Part shown: in pieces, positions 20,793 to 34,507 of the stretch
How positions within the stretch are numbered: position 1 is the stretch's first letter
Layout of the letters: each line of letters opens with the position of its first letter
Sequence record: PV245934.1
Origin: Escherichia phage sutha
Strand: one strand, 5' to 3'
DNA length: 64,000 bases
The notes under the pieces: model-generated
Databases searched by the model: none
The model's input: only the letters and a program-made list of their open reading frames with translations
Told to the model about the DNA's origin: nothing
Program-made: the position numbers and the translations under genes

Positions 20793-21179
20793 TTATTCGA
20801 GGGAAAGAAGATATTTACTTTGATAAAACATTCCAGTAATATCATCTATCGTACTTTGAATGGCTGGAGGCATTTCTTTGTAAATGCTGTTAGATTGGTC
20901 TAGTATGCGATCAATCATTTTAATTGTGTCGGTAGGAAGTTTACTGGCATCTGGAATAGAAGGTGTGTATTTTCTACCAGAATACCCCAAATATTGCTCA
21001 CCAAATTTATCAATCAAATCTGGCAACTCAGAGAAAATAAAATCGTATGCTTTGTGTCTAGCATAACTTTTAGTTTCAAAATGCGCAGAATGAAAATAAG
21101 CTTGTGCAGCCATTAATAAACCTAAGTATTCATCTGCCTTTGAAGGTTTTCCACTTTGTGAAAAGTCGCTGAATTTCAT
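20793..21179 (-). CDS. hypothetical protein
   Basis: 128-aa ORF followed by hairpin terminator. Confidence 0.45.
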
Positions 21180-21469
21180 TCAGTCTCCAATTTAATGTTC
21201 ATAATTCTAGCGTATGATTGTGCCATCTCCGCGCCTCGCTCTATACATTCAAAATCGGAAGAGCACGGGTCATTTTTATAGGTCGTTCGCATAAAACTAT
21301 AGAACTGTTCAGATGATTCTACGCTTTTATTTTCAAAAAGCATATAAACGTGTCTAATACCAGATTCCATAAATTTATCAAAATGAGGATCGACATTCGC
21401 TTCAATCGGTGGAGATAAAGCAAACGCTAATCCTAGCATGGCAAATAGTGCCGTTGCTTTTAAGGCCAT
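21176..21469 (-). CDS. rI: lysis inhibition regulator RI
   Basis: 97 aa with signal-anchor MALKATALFAMLGLAFALSPPIEANVD...; matches recalled T4 RI and sits next to tk. Confidence 0.85.
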   Translation of the reverse strand: MALKATALFAMLGLAFALSPPIEANVDPHFDKFMESGIRHVYMLFENKSVESSEQFYSFMRTTYKNDPCSSDFECIERGAEMAQSYARIMNIKLETE

Positions 21470-21481
21470 AAAGGCCTCCTA

Positions 21482-21694
21482 TCATTTTTGTCCTGTATTT
21501 ACTTTGTGCCGGTGCACGGCCTTAACTTTATCAAGGTATTTTTCAAAATTTCGCAATCTAGTATAGTCTGCCGGAGATTGGTTGAGTGATACTTCTCGAC
21601 GCAAAGCTGAAATGATATTTCCAACTTCCCTACGAATTTCATCTAATTGAAGAACAGTAAGATTGCGAAGTTGCTTTTCAGTTAATTGTAGCAT
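21482..21694 (-). CDS. hypothetical protein
   Basis: 70-aa ORF between tk and rI. Confidence 0.4.
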
Positions 21695-21736
21695 ATATAC
21701 CCCTTTAGTTAGATAAACCTATTTATAACTTTTGCA

Positions 21737-22318
21737 TTAACCGAGCTTTTTAGTTAATTCATTCCAATGTTTTCTACACAAAGAAACATAAATTTCATCA
21801 CCAATACAGATTTGATCACCTTCTTTAACTGGTGTTCCATCTTCCATTAATCGAGCCGTCATAATCGTTTTTTTACCGCAATGACAAACTGCCTTTAGTT
21901 CAATAAGTTTATCTGCAATCGCCAAAAGTTCTTTAGAACCTTCAAATAATTTTCCGGCGAAATCAGTCCTTAGACCATAAGCCATAACAGGAACATTATA
22001 TGTATCAACAATTCGACTTAATTGATGCACCTGTTCAGTTTTTAAAAACTGGGCTTCATCTACAAATACACAATGAATATCTTTTTGTGCTTCAGCCCAT
22101 TTATAGAACTCAAAAATATCCATATCATCCGTAATAATATTCGCTTCCTGCTTAATTCCAATGCGAGAAACGACTTCACAGACAGAATCGCGAGTATCAA
22201 TAGCAGGTTTAAGAACTAATACACCCATTCCGCGTTCTTTATAATTATGCGCAGCAGTCAAAAGAGAAGCAGATTTTCCAGCATTCATTGCTGCATAAGT
22301 AAAAATTAAACTCGCCAT
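21737..22318 (-). CDS. tk: thymidine kinase
   Basis: 193 aa; P-loop AAMNAGKS; C-terminal zinc-binding CHCGKK...C..H of type II thymidine kinases. Confidence 0.9.
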   Translation of the reverse strand: MASLIFTYAAMNAGKSASLLTAAHNYKERGMGVLVLKPAIDTRDSVCEVVSRIGIKQEANIITDDMDIFEFYKWAEAQKDIHCVFVDEAQFLKTEQVHQLSRIVDTYNVPVMAYGLRTDFAGKLFEGSKELLAIADKLIELKAVCHCGKKTIMTARLMEDGTPVKEGDQICIGDEIYVSLCRKHWNELTKKLG

Positions 22319-22327
22319 ATCACCTTC

Positions 22328-22534
22328 TTAAAGCGTATTCACATAAGCTATTAATTCGTTTTCTTTCTTATCAAACCGGTCAGCAAATTCTTCTTGCTGT
22401 TCGGGAGATAGCGGGCCGTATTCATCATAAAAGGTGTTTGCTTCTGTATGCTCATCTAGAAGTTCATGGATAAGCTCAAACAATTTATCTTTTTGTTCTT
22501 TACTCAGACTCATAACCATGTAACCTTTAAGCAA
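22328..22534 (-). CDS. hypothetical protein
   Basis: 68-aa acidic ORF. Confidence 0.35.
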   Translation of the reverse strand: MLKGYMVMSLSKEQKDKLFELIHELLDEHTEANTFYDEYGPLSPEQQEEFADRFDKKENELIAYVNTL

Positions 22535-22722
22535 TATTCTTCTACATGTTGTTTACGACCTTTCCTATCAATAAAGGTATATTCAACGAATGTTCCAATA
22601 TAGTCTTTATCTACATCATGAGGACTATTAATTGGGCATTTAGTACGGCAAATGCGTTCCCATTGACGAATAATTTCTGCTTTGTTTTTAGGATCAAACG
22701 GATGCGGGTAATGTGCTTTCAT
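22510..22722 (-). CDS. hypothetical protein
   Basis: 70-aa ORF. Confidence 0.35.
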   Translation of the reverse strand: MKAHYPHPFDPKNKAEIIRQWERICRTKCPINSPHDVDKDYIGTFVEYTFIDRKGRKQHVEEYCLKVTWL

Positions 22723-23173
22723 AATCCACCACTATTAAATCAATATCAGGAGTAAACATGTCGATTAATTTAGAAACCTTATCCCAATCACCGCCAGCAA
22801 TACCGCAACCTATGCGTGGAATGTAAATTACTGGTTTAAACAAAAGGGTCTCTGCCTGTAGATTTAATTCTATCATGCAGTTTACTAAAGCACCATAATC
22901 AAGATTAGGACCCGGTTCGTATTGCGTATACAGGTTATAGCATATACCAAATCCCGTAGGACTATGTTTAAAAACAATAGACATATCGCCTAATTTATCG
23001 CGAGAACCGTACTCGGTAGTAGTTTTATCTATTTCTAAAATTTTAGGATAGGCCCTCGCTAATTGACCCGCTACACCTGAACCCATAGTATGAAAGCAGT
23101 TGCACCCGTGCGCAATAATATTACCTTGAAGAAATAGGGCGACAATATCGCCCTTGATATATTTTACAATCAT
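22694..23173 (-). CDS. macrodomain protein (ADP-ribose binding/processing)
   Basis: GDIVALFLQGNIIAHGCNCFHTMGSGVAGQL resembles the macrodomain core (GDIT...NAAN...GGGV). Confidence 0.6.
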   Translation of the reverse strand: MIVKYIKGDIVALFLQGNIIAHGCNCFHTMGSGVAGQLARAYPKILEIDKTTTEYGSRDKLGDMSIVFKHSPTGFGICYNLYTQYEPGPNLDYGALVNCMIELNLQAETLLFKPVIYIPRIGCGIAGGDWDKVSKLIDMFTPDIDLIVVDYESTLPASV

Positions 23174-23511
23174 CTAGTACTCAATCCTCGATTATAAGAA
23201 TCTACCAAACGGTCAACCATTGAATGACAAGCGGCTTTATCTTTCTCCTCCGCAACTGAACATTCTAAGGTATTCCACTTTTTAGCATATCGTTTTAATA
23301 AAGTATCGTTCTTGTATCTGCTTGATTTATCTCTTTCTCCGTCTTTATATGCATATATTAATTTCTGCGCAAATTCAGCTTGGCATGCTTTATTTTTCCC
23401 ACAATAATCCGCGGCAGTACGGTTTACATACTCTCTAATTTCAGTATATGATGTATTTGCTAACGCAGAAAATGAAATTAATCCTATACATAAAACCAAA
23501 ATTTTAGTCAT
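23170..23511 (-). CDS. secreted small protein
   Basis: Signal peptide MTKILVLCIGLISFSALA; several Cys. Confidence 0.45.
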   Translation of the reverse strand: MTKILVLCIGLISFSALANTSYTEIREYVNRTAADYCGKNKACQAEFAQKLIYAYKDGERDKSSRYKNDTLLKRYAKKWNTLECSVAEEKDKAACHSMVDRLVDSYNRGLSTR

Positions 23512-24049
23512 TTACTATTTCCAAAAGTTTATTATTTTTAAGGTAGTTAGCCTTTTCTAGGACTTCAGAAGCATATTTAGAACCTGCTTTAACATTCCAT
23601 CCCGAATTATAAGAGGATATCGCCTTTCTTATATCGCCCTTATGTATATTTAACCAATAAGAAAGTTCAATGTACGCCCAGGAAGCTGAATTGGACCGTT
23701 TATTCAACATTCTTTTTATTTCGGCATCGGTCATATTATAACCAAGTTCCTTAACTCTTGCTCGCATAGTTGGCAAATAATTTTGGAACATTCCATAGGC
23801 ATGATGTTTTGGTTTAGATTTTAAATTAACTCCGGCAGAGCTTTCTTGCCATAAAATAGCAGCCATTATATGACCTAATCCGCTCTTGTGGATATTTTTA
23901 TGTGTTTTATATTTTCCATCCTTAGAAAATTGTTCCCCGAATTGATACGCGTAACGCATGTTATCGAGTTGGACATTACTGAAAGTATGCTCGGAGCTAT
24001 GTGCCATCATTGAAATGGCCAATAGACCAGCGAGTAGTGCTTTTCTCAT
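23504..24049 (-). CDS. periplasmic lytic-transglycosylase-like protein
   Basis: Signal peptide, then ILWQESSAGVN and AYGMFQ motifs resembling the SLT/family-1 catalytic ES...GLMQ pattern. Confidence 0.5.
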   Translation of the reverse strand: MRKALLAGLLAISMMAHSSEHTFSNVQLDNMRYAYQFGEQFSKDGKYKTHKNIHKSGLGHIMAAILWQESSAGVNLKSKPKHHAYGMFQNYLPTMRARVKELGYNMTDAEIKRMLNKRSNSASWAYIELSYWLNIHKGDIRKAISSYNSGWNVKAGSKYASEVLEKANYLKNNKLLEIVND

Positions 24050-24056
24050 GCTTACC

Positions 24057-24518
24057 TCATTGAGTTTTAATTACTGCTTTAGAAGCCTTTCCCGGTAAAC
24101 GACGACTATTGATAATTGCCATCCTGCACTGAAGTGACGGGTCTTTGAACTTCGCATTAGGTTTACAAACTGTAAATCCAAGCCAAAGATTTCCATCTGT
24201 GATTTCTAAACGTCCAGGACGATATTCAACCCCATCAATAAAATCCTCGTCAATGTCAGGACGCGGAGGCATACTCAGGAATTCATTAACTTCTAAAACA
24301 TGGTCTTTTATTTTGTGGAATAATTCAAAAACATATGTCTCATCAATCTCCCGTTGAATTGCACGATCAAGAAGATGCTGAGAATATTTTAGATGAAACG
24401 ATGAGACCCCTGCTGCTTTTGATGCCTCACGAATCTCATTGTTAATTTGACGAAACTCCGACTCAAAGTGACGACGGAGCTTATTTCGACGGATAAAAAC
24501 TTCTGTGTTGATAGTCAT
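24057..24518 (-). CDS. regB: RegB-like endoribonuclease (by size, position and recollection)
   Basis: 153 aa, preceded by a perfect early promoter (GTTTAC N18 TATAAT); lies between tk and e as regB does in T4. Confidence 0.55.
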   Translation of the reverse strand: MTINTEVFIRRNKLRRHFESEFRQINNEIREASKAAGVSSFHLKYSQHLLDRAIQREIDETYVFELFHKIKDHVLEVNEFLSMPPRPDIDEDFIDGVEYRPGRLEITDGNLWLGFTVCKPNAKFKDPSLQCRMAIINSRRLPGKASKAVIKTQ

Positions 24519-24545: not shown

Positions 24546-24575
24546 ATTATACCACAGTCAAGAGGAAAAGTAAAC
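24546..24575 (-). promoter_or_regulatory. early promoter upstream of regB-like gene
   Basis: GTTTAC, 18 nt, TATAAT (consensus -10). Confidence 0.55.
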
Positions 24576-33554: not shown

Positions 33555-33631
33555 TGGCCAGGGTGAAAGGATTCTAACCTTTAACCTGCGGTTTAGAGGA
33601 CCGCTACTCTATACAATTGAGTTACACCCCG
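33555..33631 (-). tRNA. tRNA-Arg (anticodon UCU)
   Basis: Manual cloverleaf: acceptor CGGGGTG/CACCCTG, T-arm AAAGG-TTAGAAT-CCTTT, anticodon loop CCUCUAA, encoded CCA. Confidence 0.75.
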
Positions 33632-33757
33632 TAATTAGTTCACAGCAATACCTACTCCAACAATCAAGATGTCTTCACACGAAATTAAGAGAAGAGTGAT
33701 CAGTTCAACCCCTATAACCGCGTCAAGTAGATATTAATGTGACAATTGTCACAAATT

Positions 33758-33832
33758 TGGCGGACGTGATAGGATTCGAACCTATAACCAATCGCTTAAC
33801 AGGCGATCGCTCTGCCATTGAGCTACACATCC
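33758..33832 (-). tRNA. tRNA-Asn (anticodon GUU)
   Basis: Clean cloverleaf: D-arm GCTC-AATGGCA-GAGC, anticodon arm ATCGC-CUGUUAA-GCGAT, T-arm ATAGG-TTCGAAT-CCTAT, encoded CCA. Confidence 0.75.
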
Positions 33833-33836
33833 AAAT

Positions 33837-33923
33837 TGGTGGGGAGTGGTGGAGTCGAACCACCCGAGTCGCAATGACAATGGATTTACAGTCCACACCG
33901 CTACCTCTACGGGATAACTCCCC
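33837..33923 (-). tRNA. tRNA-Tyr (anticodon GUA), long variable arm
   Basis: 87 nt; anticodon loop CUGUAAA; T-arm GTGG-TTCGACT-CCAC; acceptor GGGGAGT/ACTCCCC; encoded CCA. Confidence 0.7.
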
Positions 33924-33932
33924 TAATTAATT

Positions 33933-34009
33933 TGGTGACCCAGACCAGATTTGAACTGATAACCTTTCCCTTATGAGGGGACTGCTGCTAACCATTGAGC
34001 TACAGGGCC
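33933..34009 (-). tRNA. tRNA with CAU anticodon (Met or Ile2)
   Basis: Anticodon loop CUCAUAA; T-arm ATCAG-TTCAAAT-CTGGT; imperfect acceptor and D stems; encoded CCA. Confidence 0.6.
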
Positions 34010-34010
34010 T

Positions 34011-34086
34011 TGGTGCTGATTGACGGAATCGAACCGCCGACGTCCTCATTACAAGTGAGGTGCTCTACCTACTGAGCTAAATCAGC
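34011..34086 (-). tRNA. tRNA-Thr (anticodon UGU)
   Basis: Acceptor GCTGATT/AATCAGC, D-arm GCTC-AGTAGGTA-GAGC, anticodon loop CUUGUAA, T-arm GGCGG-TTCGATT-CCGTC, CCA. Confidence 0.8.
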
Positions 34087-34091
34087 AAAAC

Positions 34092-34181
34092 TGGCGGAGG
34101 CGATAGGATTTGAACCTATGAGTCGCCGGAGCGACTGCCGGTTTTCAAGACCGGTGCATTAAACCACTCTGCCACGCCTCC
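34092..34181 (-). tRNA. tRNA-Ser (anticodon UGA), long variable arm
   Basis: 90 nt; anticodon arm CCGGT-CUUGAAA-ACCGG; T-arm ATAGG-TTCAAAT-CCTAT; CCA. Confidence 0.8.
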
Positions 34182-34183
34182 AG

Positions 34184-34257
34184 TCTCCGCGGCAGGATTT
34201 GAACCTGCGACATTCTGCTCCCAAAGCAGACGCTCTACCAAACTGAGCTACACGGAG
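34184..34257 (-). tRNA. tRNA-Pro (anticodon UGG)
   Basis: Anticodon arm TCTGC-UUUGGGA-GCAGA; T-arm GCAGG-TTCAAAT-CCTGC; CCA not encoded. Confidence 0.8.
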
Positions 34258-34267
34258 TAAATTAAAT

Positions 34268-34341
<74 letters not shown>

Positions 34342-34346
34342 AAATT

Positions 34347-34433
34347 TGGTGCGAGAAGTGGGACTCGAACCCACAAGGAAATCATTCCGCAGCATTTTAA
34401 GTGCTGTGCCTTTACCAATTTGACCATTCTCGC
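34347..34433 (-). tRNA. tRNA-Leu (anticodon UAA), long variable arm
   Basis: 87 nt; anticodon arm CAGCA-CUUAAAA-TGCTG; T-arm GTGGG-TTCGAGT-CCCAC; CCA. Confidence 0.8.
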
Positions 34434-34434
34434 G

Positions 34435-34507
34435 CTGGGAATAAAGGACTCGAACCTTTGCATCTAGCAGTCAAAGTGCTATGCCTTACCAACTTGGCTA
34501 ATTCCCA
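34435..34507 (-). tRNA. tRNA-Gln (anticodon UUG)
   Basis: Acceptor TGGGAAT/ATTCCCA, anticodon arm TAGCA-CUUUGAC-TGCTA, T-arm AAAGG-TTCGAGT-CCTTT; CCA not encoded. Confidence 0.8.

What the first reader, a model, noticed from the sequence alone, without database searches (positions are those of the whole stretch)
22694..23173. Macrodomain protein in the tk-proximal early region
The motif GDIV...QGNIIAHGCNCFHTMGSGVAGQ matches the macrodomain ADP-ribose-binding core. Phage macrodomains could remove ADP-ribose marks or degrade ADP-ribose-derived signals, which is relevant to host ADP-ribosylating defenses (for example DarT-type toxins).
Basis: partly seen in the sequence, partly recalled or inferred. 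Interest (0 to 1): 0.55.

Follow-up and report, generated by a model that had tools for sequence, protein, structure and literature searches.

The report
Phage T4-type anti-DarT2 macrodomain (tk.4/adfM)

Summary
The ORF at 22694..23173 (- strand, 159 aa) is real and is a macrodomain. It passes the Pfam Macro cut-off, the AlphaFold2 model has pLDDT 93, and Foldseek places it with TARG1, Poa1p, BT1257, DarG and SCO6735. The window is a Tequatrovirus (T4-like) genome, and the gene sits in the tk.4 position between vs and tk.3.

T4 tk.4 has carried an 'A1pp/macro' annotation since at least 2006. A 2025 preprint (HIDEN-SEQ) found it to be the single T4 gene required for growth on a DarTG2 host and named it adfM.

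The likely mechanism is removal of ADP-ribose from thymidines that DarT2 has modified in phage DNA. The protein has an invariant Gln84 where TARG1 and DarG have the catalytic Lys. Streptomyces SCO6735 has the same substitution and still cleaves dT-ADP-ribose.

One thing is not ordinary. This copy is only 58% identical to T4 Tk.4, although the neighbouring genes are 93-100% identical. It is therefore a second common allele, and that allele is untested.

Verdict: observation confirmed, interpretation supported, already known, low interest.

The parts
22694..23173 (-). tk.4 / adfM coding sequence, 159 aa, single macrodomain
   Evidence: ORF. Pfam Macro. AF2 model and Foldseek. 100% identical to phage HY01 AHK10962.1 'Macro domain-containing protein'. 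58% identical to T4 Tk.4 NP_049723.
23066..23110 (-). Residues 22-36, HGCNCFHTMGSGVAG: first Gly-rich ADP-ribose/phosphate-binding loop. It includes invariant H22, G23, N25, C26, G33 and A35.
   Evidence: Invariant columns in 62 homologues. N25 occupies the position of the conserved macrodomain Asn (SCO6735 N27, DarG N22), according to PMC9411070 and PMC13309987. This correspondence is inferred by alignment.
22922..22924 (-). Codon CAA for Gln84, the residue that replaces the catalytic Lys of TARG1 (K84) and DarG (K80)
   Evidence: The profile alignment puts the family Gln on TARG1 K84 and on the Gln of BT1257. Gln84 is invariant in the family. SCO6735 Gln85 is the equivalent residue, and Q85A abolishes its activity.
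22784..22819 (-). Residues 119-130, PRIGCGIAGGDW: second Gly-rich (diphosphate-binding) loop
   Evidence: P119, G122, G124 and W130 are invariant; A126, G127 and G128 are at least 90% conserved. Near-identical to PRIGCGLAGGKW in BT1257 and PRIGCGLAGGTW in SCO6735.
23170..23173 (-). ATGA overlap: the tk.4 start codon overlaps the vs stop codon (possible translational coupling)
   Evidence: Read directly from the sequence. T4 has the same arrangement.
23185..23189 (-). GAGGA, a likely ribosome-binding site 12 nt upstream of the ATG
   Evidence: Sequence. The same site is marked 'pot. rRNA binding site (ORF 60.5)' in T4 record X04567. Not tested.
24546..24574 (-). Sigma-70/T4-early-type promoter-like site (TTTACT, 17 nt, TATAAT, with TG) upstream of regB. 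It is the likely start of the regB-vs.1-vs-tk.4-tk.3-tk transcription unit.
   Evidence: Consensus scan, matching 10 of 12 positions. Promoter-like sites were not enriched over shuffled sequence, so this is only a candidate.

Best explanation
The gene is the orthologue, as a divergent allele, of phage T4 tk.4, recently named adfM (anti-DarT factor, macrodomain). It is a stand-alone macrodomain of the TARG1/DarG/SCO6735 (ALC1-like) class. It is made early in infection from the regB-vs-tk transcription unit.

It most likely acts as an orphan, antitoxin-like enzyme. When the host DarT2 toxin attaches ADP-ribose to thymidines in single-stranded phage DNA, the macrodomain binds the ADP-ribose through its two Gly-rich loops and hydrolyses the thymidine-ribose bond. 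This releases ADP-ribose and restores a template that can be replicated.

The chemistry should follow SCO6735 rather than DarG. Gln84, held in place by Asn25, would position the distal ribose for a water-mediated reaction. There is no catalytic lysine.

Shown here: the ORF, the macro fold, its class, the conserved residues, the synteny and the orthology. Shown by others for T4 Tk.4: it is required for resistance to DarTG2. Inferred: that this allele has the same role, and that the mechanism is enzymatic.
For: - Pfam Macro is above the cut-off.
- PDB sequence hits are BT1257, TARG1, SCO6735, Poa1p and DarG, with profile E-values of 6e-19 to 1e-9.
- The AF2 model has pLDDT 93.3. The top Foldseek hits are TARG1, Poa1p, BT1257, DarG and SCO6735, with TM-scores of 0.66-0.83 (normalised by target length) and probability 1.0.
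- The best PADLOC and NCBIfam models are both DarG, covering the macrodomain half only.
- The gene order regB-vs.1-vs-tk.4-...-tk is conserved with T4, HY01, VR5 and JY1.
- BLASTP against T4 Tk.4 gives 58% identity at E=1e-70 over the full length.
- All 15 invariant family residues are present, and the window protein matches the family consensus in loop 2 better than T4 does.
- Literature: T4 tk.4 was the only significant HIDEN-SEQ hit on DarTG2, and its knock-out is DarTG2-sensitive. T2 and T4 lacking adfN, and T4 also lacking adfA, stay DarTG2-resistant.
- Literature: SCO6735 has Gln in place of Lys, cleaves DarT-made dT-ADPr, and Q85A and N27S abolish or nearly abolish that activity.
- Literature: the phiKZ macrodomain AdfM removes T-ADPr from oligonucleotides in vitro.
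Against: - The genetic evidence is for the T4 allele, which is only 58% identical. This allele has not been tested.
- No biochemical assay of any T4-type Tk.4 was found. The preprint itself says enzymatic removal 'seems likely'.
- The catalytic Lys of DarG and TARG1 is absent, so activity rests on the SCO6735 precedent.
- H22, which aligns with the Poa1p residue mutated as H23A, is invariant. A Poa1p-like phosphatase activity therefore cannot be excluded from sequence.
- SCO6735 also blocks DarT by binding, so protection need not be purely catalytic.
Confidence: 0.8

Rival explanations
1. It protects against DarT2 mainly by binding and blocking the toxin (antitoxin mimicry), not by hydrolysing ADP-ribosyl-DNA.
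For: Catalytically dead SCO6735 Q85A still inhibits DarT in vitro, more strongly than DarG or TARG1 mutants. ICP1 AdfB works by direct binding to DarT. The deep allelic divergence of tk.4 inside otherwise near-identical genomes would fit an interface in an arms race.
Against: The protein lacks the C-terminal DarT-binding domain of DarG: the HMM match covers only positions 3-144 of 329. The residues conserved across 62 homologues are the ADP-ribose-site residues, as expected for an enzyme. A hydrolase acts on the product whichever DarT made it.
Confidence: 0.08
2. It is a Poa1p-like ADP-ribose-1''-phosphate phosphatase or O-acetyl-ADP-ribose deacetylase that works on small nucleotide metabolites. 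This is the legacy 'phosphatase/A1pp' annotation.
For: RefSeq names it 'phosphatase' with an A1pp motif, and PHROG 335 is labelled 'phosphatase'. Poa1p is among the best sequence and fold hits. H22 aligns with the Poa1p His that was mutated in 6lfs and is invariant.
Against: The annotation is by domain transfer only. No phage pathway that produces ADP-ribose-1''-phosphate is known. The only phenotype reported for the T4 orthologue is sensitivity to DarTG2.
Confidence: 0.05
3. It erases ADP-ribose from proteins or RNA: either marks made by the phage's own Alt/ModA/ModB transferases, or marks made by other host defence transferases such as the mRNA ADP-ribosyltransferase CmdT.
For: TARG1 and SCO6735 also remove protein-linked (Glu/Asp) ADP-ribose. 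T4-like phages encode three ADP-ribosyltransferases, and CmdTAC targets T-even phages (abstracts).
Against: Alt and Mod enzymes modify arginine. From general knowledge, that linkage is not cleaved by this macrodomain class but by ARH/DraG-type enzymes. No phenotype or assay links Tk.4 to these substrates, and the CmdTAC paper does not mention a phage macrodomain counter-factor.
Confidence: 0.05
4. It degrades or sequesters NAD-derived immune signals (for example the cyclic ADP-ribose isomers of Thoeris), as the first reader also suggested.
For: Only the general fact that macrodomains bind ADP-ribose-containing ligands.
Against: No tool result or paper found here connects this family to signal degradation. 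The conserved site matches glycohydrolase-type macrodomains.
Confidence: 0.02

Closest known systems
Phage T4 Tk.4 = AdfM (NP_049723; HIDEN-SEQ preprint 10.1101/2025.11.20.689424)
   Same: Same genomic slot between vs and tk.3, with the same ATGA overlap with vs. Same length class (159 against 155 aa). Full-length homology (E=1e-70). The same invariant residues, including N25, Q84, G122 and G124.
   Different: Only 58% amino-acid and 64% nucleotide identity, while flanking genes are 93-100% identical at the amino-acid level. Loop 2 is PRIGCGIAGGDW here and PRIGAGIGKGNW in T4. There is a 4-residue C-terminal extension that overlaps tk.3 by 29 nt. This allele is untested.
Streptomyces coelicolor SCO6735 (PDB 5E3B) and Bacteroides BT1257 (2AFC/2FG1)
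   Same: Stand-alone macrodomains of the ALC1-like class, with Gln where TARG1 and DarG have the catalytic Lys and a near-identical PRIGCGLAGG(K/T)W loop. BT1257 is the best PDB sequence match. SCO6735 hydrolyses DarT-made dT-ADP-ribose on DNA.
   Different: Cellular rather than viral proteins. About 25% identity. SCO6735 and BT1257 have a longer 'mobile loop' after the Gln (insertion seen).
DarG antitoxin of DarTG2 (PDB 5M31, 5M3E, 5M3I; NCBIfam NF048014)
   Same: Same fold and class (TM-score 0.73-0.77), and DarG is the best NCBIfam and PADLOC model. Same presumed substrate, thymidine-linked ADP-ribose on ssDNA.
   Different: No C-terminal DarT-binding domain and no adjacent darT gene. Gln replaces the catalytic Lys80. 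The score of 27.7 bits is far below the 250-bit family cut-off.
PhiKZ gp104 AdfM (Cell Rep 2026, PMC13309987)
   Same: A phage-encoded stand-alone macrodomain that counters DarTG2. De-ADP-ribosylation of T-ADPr oligonucleotides was shown in vitro.
   Different: Only remotely related: hhalign probability 96% with 22% identity, and BLASTP E=0.001 over 23 residues. It keeps the DarG-type Lys (K78), is imported into the phage nucleus and is expressed late. It is a separate lineage that happens to share the name.
Human TARG1/OARD1 (PDB 4J5R/4J5S)
   Same: Top Foldseek hit (E=1.3e-9) and profile E=8e-17.
   Different: The TARG1 catalytic dyad K84/D125 is replaced by Q84/A126.

Membership tests
Macrodomain (Pfam PF01661) | Match to the family HMM above the curated gathering score | tested here: met
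   32 bits against a cut-off of 22, E=1.3e-7, profile positions 2-117 of 118.
Macrodomain (Pfam PF01661) | Three-layer alpha/beta/alpha macro fold | tested here: met
   AF2 model with pLDDT 93.3 and pTM 0.88, with alternating strands and helices. 155 PDB matches at E<=0.001, and the listed ones are macrodomains or macrodomain-derived designs.
Macrodomain (Pfam PF01661) | Two Gly-rich loops that hold the ADP-ribose diphosphate, plus the conserved Asn near the distal ribose | tested here: met
   HGCNCFHTMGSGVAG and PRIGCGIAGGDW. N25, G33, G122 and G124 are invariant in 62 homologues.
Macrodomain (Pfam PF01661) | Binds ADP-ribose | not testable with these tools
   Needs ITC, a thermal-shift assay or a co-crystal.
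TARG1/DarG-type catalytic macrodomain (ALC1-like class, Lys subtype) | Catalytic lysine (TARG1 K84, DarG K80) | tested here: not met
   The profile alignment places invariant Gln84 on TARG1 K84. TARG1 D125 aligns with Ala126.
SCO6735/BT1257 subtype of the ALC1-like class | Gln at the Lys position, supported by the conserved Asn; Gly-x-Gly in loop 2 | tested here: met
   Q84 aligns with the BT1257 Gln. N25, G122 and G124 are invariant. The roles of Q85, N27 and G128 in SCO6735 come from PMC9411070.
DarG antitoxin (type II TA, NCBIfam NF048014 / PADLOC DarG) | Full-length match, including the C-terminal DarT-binding domain | tested here: not met
   27.7 bits against a cut-off of 250, covering model positions 2-142 of 338 and 3-144 of 329. 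The protein is only 159 aa.
DarG antitoxin (type II TA, NCBIfam NF048014 / PADLOC DarG) | Encoded next to a darT toxin gene | tested here: not met
   The neighbours are vs and tk.3. A bacterial homologue (Pelagimonas) also has no DarT neighbour.
T4-type AdfM (Tk.4) | Orthology to T4 tk.4: full-length homology in the conserved vs / tk.4 / tk.3 position | tested here: met
   58% identity at E=1e-70. Synteny with T4, HY01, VR5 and JY1.
T4-type AdfM (Tk.4) | Required for phage growth on a DarTG2-expressing host | not testable with these tools
   Shown for the T4 allele only. It needs a knock-out or complementation with this allele.

The most novel reading that the evidence does not exclude
T4-like coliphages carry two (or more) deeply divergent adfM alleles of about 58% identity. 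In the phage collection, 275 records hold the window-type allele and 221 the T4-type (each at >=95% identity). The alleles are swapped as a cassette inside otherwise 93-100% identical neighbourhoods. The most novel reading is that this dimorphism is functional. The alleles could differ in which ADP-ribose linkage or which DarT family they neutralise. Alternatively, one could have diversified to escape a host factor that senses or inhibits the macrodomain.
Probability: 0.12. Interest if true: 0.5.

Novelty: already known. Interest (0 to 1): 0.2.

Why it matters
DarTG systems stop phages by ADP-ribosylating their DNA. T-even phages appear to stack several counter-measures: AdfA, the NADAR enzyme AdfN against DarT1, and this macrodomain against DarT2. 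Knowing that a therapeutic or model phage carries adfM predicts resistance to DarTG2 hosts.

For this window the value is mainly correct annotation. 'Phosphatase' and 'RNase III inhibitor', which appear in several GenBank records, are legacy labels. Two points remain open. The Gln-type active site has never been assayed in a phage protein. The common window-type allele has not been tested at all.

Tried and rejected
It was rerun with database homologues only.
- A literature search for 'AdfM' was swamped by 'adfm' journal DOIs. The first tk.4 and T4 queries failed on the minimum term length.
- Promoter and terminator scans showed no enrichment over shuffled sequence (15 found against 18.8 expected; 4 against 3.0). 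Only the strong early-type site upstream of regB was kept, as a candidate.
- The 'potential promoter' that the 1986 T4 record marks just upstream of ORF 60.5 has only a 14-nt spacer between TTGACC and TATAAT in this window. I do not rely on it.
- A terminator-like hairpin inside the 5' end of the gene was considered as an attenuator. It is conserved in T4 and VR5 but absent in JY1 and phi1_146010, so it may simply follow from the KGDIVAL coding sequence. It is left as an aside.
- Membership in DarG proper was considered and rejected: no C-terminal domain, no darT neighbour and no Lys.
- A bacterial homologue was checked for a DarT neighbour, and none was found.
- I did not obtain a residue-level alignment to DarG or SCO6735 around Gln84. 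The equivalence to DarG K80 and SCO6735 Q85 goes through the direct TARG1 K84 and BT1257 alignments plus the structure-based alignment reported in PMC9411070.

Full report
**Observation**

The window has an ATG-to-stop ORF at exactly 22694..23173 on the minus strand, encoding 159 aa. The neighbours on the same strand are, reading upstream to downstream:
- regB, 24057..24518
- vs.1, 23504..24049
- vs, 23170..23511
- the ORF itself
- a 70-aa tk.3 homologue, 22510..22722
- a 68-aa small ORF, 22328..22534
- thymidine kinase, 21737..22318

The start codon overlaps the vs stop codon (ATGA), and a GAGGA lies 12 nt upstream. The surrounding DNA is 98-99% identical to many Tequatrovirus (T4-like) genomes. 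The protein is 100% identical to phage HY01 AHK10962.1, which is annotated 'Macro domain-containing protein'.

**What it is**

- Pfam Macro (PF01661) matches above its curated cut-off, at 32 bits against 22 and E=1.3e-7, over almost the whole profile.
- Against PDB sequences, the single protein hits BT1257 (E=4e-10), yeast Poa1p, SCO6735, M. tuberculosis DarG (deposited as 'RNase III inhibitor') and TARG1.
- A profile of 62 homologues raises these to E=6e-19 (BT1257), 8e-17 (TARG1), 1e-15 (SCO6735), 1e-14 (Poa1p) and 9e-12 / 1e-9 (DarG).
- An AlphaFold2 model built on 62 homologues is confident, with mean pLDDT 93.3 and pTM 0.88.
- The best Foldseek matches in the PDB are the same set: TARG1, Poa1p, BT1257, Thermus and Mycobacterium DarG, and SCO6735. 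All have probability 1.0 and TM-scores of about 0.7-0.8.

The protein belongs to the ALC1-like (TARG1/DarG/SCO6735) class of macrodomains.

**Active site**

Fifteen residues are invariant across the 62 homologues, which range from 38% to 97% identity: H22, G23, N25, C26, G33, A35, D49, G62, N80, Y82, Q84, P119, G122, G124 and W130. They fall in the two Gly-rich loops and in the NLYTQ strand end.

The profile alignment puts Gln84 on TARG1 Lys84 and on the Gln of BT1257. TARG1 Asp125 aligns with Ala126. The Lys/Asp chemistry of TARG1 and the Lys of DarG are therefore absent.

The paper on SCO6735 (PMC9411070) reports four relevant points:
- SCO6735 Gln85 occupies the position of TARG1 K84 and DarG K80.
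- SCO6735 nevertheless removes DarT-made thymidine-linked ADP-ribose from DNA.
- Q85A abolishes this activity and N27S nearly abolishes it.
- A water-mediated mechanism with Gln positioning the distal ribose is proposed.

The window protein has both residues (Q84 and N25) and a PRIGCGIAGGDW loop nearly identical to PRIGCGLAGGTW in SCO6735. I infer an SCO6735-like mechanism. This step is inference, not a demonstrated result.

**Relation to DarG**

The best NCBIfam and PADLOC models are both DarG. However, only the N-terminal macrodomain half is matched (positions 2-142 of 338 and 3-144 of 329), and the score of 27.7 bits is far below the 250-bit cut-off. There is no DarT-binding C-terminal domain and no darT neighbour. 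The protein works like the DarG macrodomain but is not a DarG. A 40%-identical bacterial homologue in Pelagimonas is also a stand-alone gene without a DarT neighbour.

**What is already known**

In T4 this gene is tk.4 (NP_049723). RefSeq annotates it 'phosphatase; contains A1pp phosphatase motif'. It was ORF 60.5 in the 1986 sequence. Nolan et al. 2006 recorded the A1pp/macro match for tk.4 orthologues in T4-like phages (PMC1524935).

LeRoux-lab work showed that T2 and T4 lacking adfN, and T4 also lacking adfA, remain resistant to DarTG2. The authors predicted a further factor (PMC11825919).

The HIDEN-SEQ preprint (10.1101/2025.11.20.689424) then found tk.4 to be the single significant conditionally essential T4 gene on a DarTG2 host. 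A clean deletion sensitised T4, the authors noted the similarity to Mtb DarG, and they named the gene adfM. They state that enzymatic removal of ADP-ribose 'seems likely', and no biochemistry is reported there.

Independently, a phiKZ macrodomain also named AdfM was shown to de-ADP-ribosylate T-ADPr oligonucleotides and to be needed on DarTG2 hosts (PMC13309987). I compared the two. PhiKZ gp104 is only remotely related to the T4-like family (hhalign probability 96% with 22% identity; BLASTP E=0.001 over 23 residues). According to the paper it keeps the DarG-type Lys78. The two 'AdfM' proteins are thus different lineages of the same macrodomain class.

**What is not ordinary**

The window protein is only 58% identical to T4 Tk.4. 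The surrounding genes are far closer at the amino-acid level:

| Genes | Amino-acid identity to T4 |
|---|---|
| rI.-1, rI, rI.1, tk | 97-100% |
| tk.3 | 93% |
| vs, vs.1, regB | 96-99% |

A 30-nt sliding comparison confines the divergence to about 23157..22700, inside the ORF. Identity there falls to 33-60%, against at least 90% on both sides. The gene is an allelic cassette.

Both alleles are common. In the phage collection, 275 records carry the window-type at >=95% identity. The T4-type is found in 221 records at >=95%, and a further 159 records fall at 80-90%. The window allele is closer to that of Dhakavirus VR5 (73%) than to T4. In loop 2 the window allele follows the family consensus (IGCGIAGGDW), whereas the experimentally tested T4 allele departs from it (IGAGIGKGNW). 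This gives no reason to doubt that the window allele is active. Whether the dimorphism has functional meaning is open, and I give it a low probability.

**Expression**

The genes from regB to tk are tightly packed or overlapping on one strand. A strong early-type promoter-like site (TTTACT, 17 nt, TATAAT, with TG) lies upstream of regB at 24574..24546. Such sites are not enriched over shuffled sequence in this AT-rich region, so this is a candidate only. Early expression fits a factor that must act before or during DNA replication, but it was not tested here.

**Rivals**

- Protection by binding DarT2 rather than by catalysis is possible as a contribution, given the SCO6735 Q85A and AdfB precedents. 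The conservation pattern, however, is that of a ligand site.
- The legacy phosphatase or deacetylase role cannot be excluded from sequence, because H22 aligns with the Poa1p histidine that was mutated (H23A). It has no supporting phenotype.
- Erasing Alt/Mod arginine marks is unlikely for this macrodomain class, from general knowledge.
- Degradation of NAD-derived signals has no support.

**Verdict**

The feature is already annotated, and its function has been assigned in the closest model phage. Interest is low. The residual value lies in the untested Gln-type chemistry and in the divergent allele.

Noticed in passing
window 22700..23157 (inside tk.4) compared with flanks 20793..22318 and 23170..24518: tk.4 is an allelic cassette. 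It is 57-58% amino-acid and 64% nucleotide identical to T4, while neighbouring genes are 93-100% identical at the amino-acid level. Both alleles are common among T4-like phages (275 and 221 records at >=95%). The window allele is closer to Dhakavirus VR5 (73%).
   Followed up: partly
window 22319..22722: The interval between tk and tk.4 varies in small-ORF content among near-identical phages. This window has two ORFs (68 aa with a doubtful TTG start, and 70 aa), T4 has three (tk.1-tk.3), HY01 has four, and VR5 has an intron-like endonuclease there. tk.3 overlaps the 3' end of tk.4 by 29 nt here, against 4 nt in T4.
   Followed up: partly
window 23136..23154 (- strand): A GC-rich 8-bp hairpin (AGGGCGAUAUUGUCGCCCU) followed by a U-rich tail begins about 20 nt into the tk.4 coding sequence. 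It is identical in T4, preserved in VR5 with a change in the loop only, and absent in Klebsiella phages JY1 and phi1_146010. It could be an RNA element, or it could simply follow from the KGDIVAL codons.
   Followed up: partly
window 33555..34507 (- strand): A cluster of 10 tRNA genes: Arg, Asn, Tyr, Met(CAT), Thr, Ser, Pro, Gly, Leu and Gln. From memory, T4 itself has 8 and lacks Asn and Tyr, so this phage has an extended set.
   Followed up: no
window 23170..23511 (vs) and 23504..24049 (vs.1): Both proteins begin with signal-peptide-like sequences: Vs with MTKILVLCIGLISFSALA|N and Vs.1 with MRKALLAGLLAISMMAHS. For Vs, described as a modifier of the cytoplasmic valyl-tRNA synthetase, an export signal would be odd. 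Vs.1 has weak lytic-transglycosylase-like matches. The HIDEN-SEQ preprint reports that vs is the most strongly depleted T4 gene in minimal medium.
   Followed up: no
L009 12518..13006 (phiKZ gp104): The phiKZ protein published as AdfM and the T4 Tk.4 protein published as AdfM are only remotely related (22% identity by profile alignment). They differ in the key residue (Lys against Gln), so the shared name covers two independent macrodomain lineages.
   Followed up: yes
GenBank records matched: Annotation of this gene is inconsistent across near-identical phage genomes: 'phosphatase', 'RNase III inhibitor', 'macro domain protein', 'Poa1p-like family protein', 'leucine aminopeptidase' and 'hypothetical protein'. 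In HY01, several neighbours are labelled 'endoribonuclease RegB domain-containing protein', apparently by spill-over.
   Followed up: no
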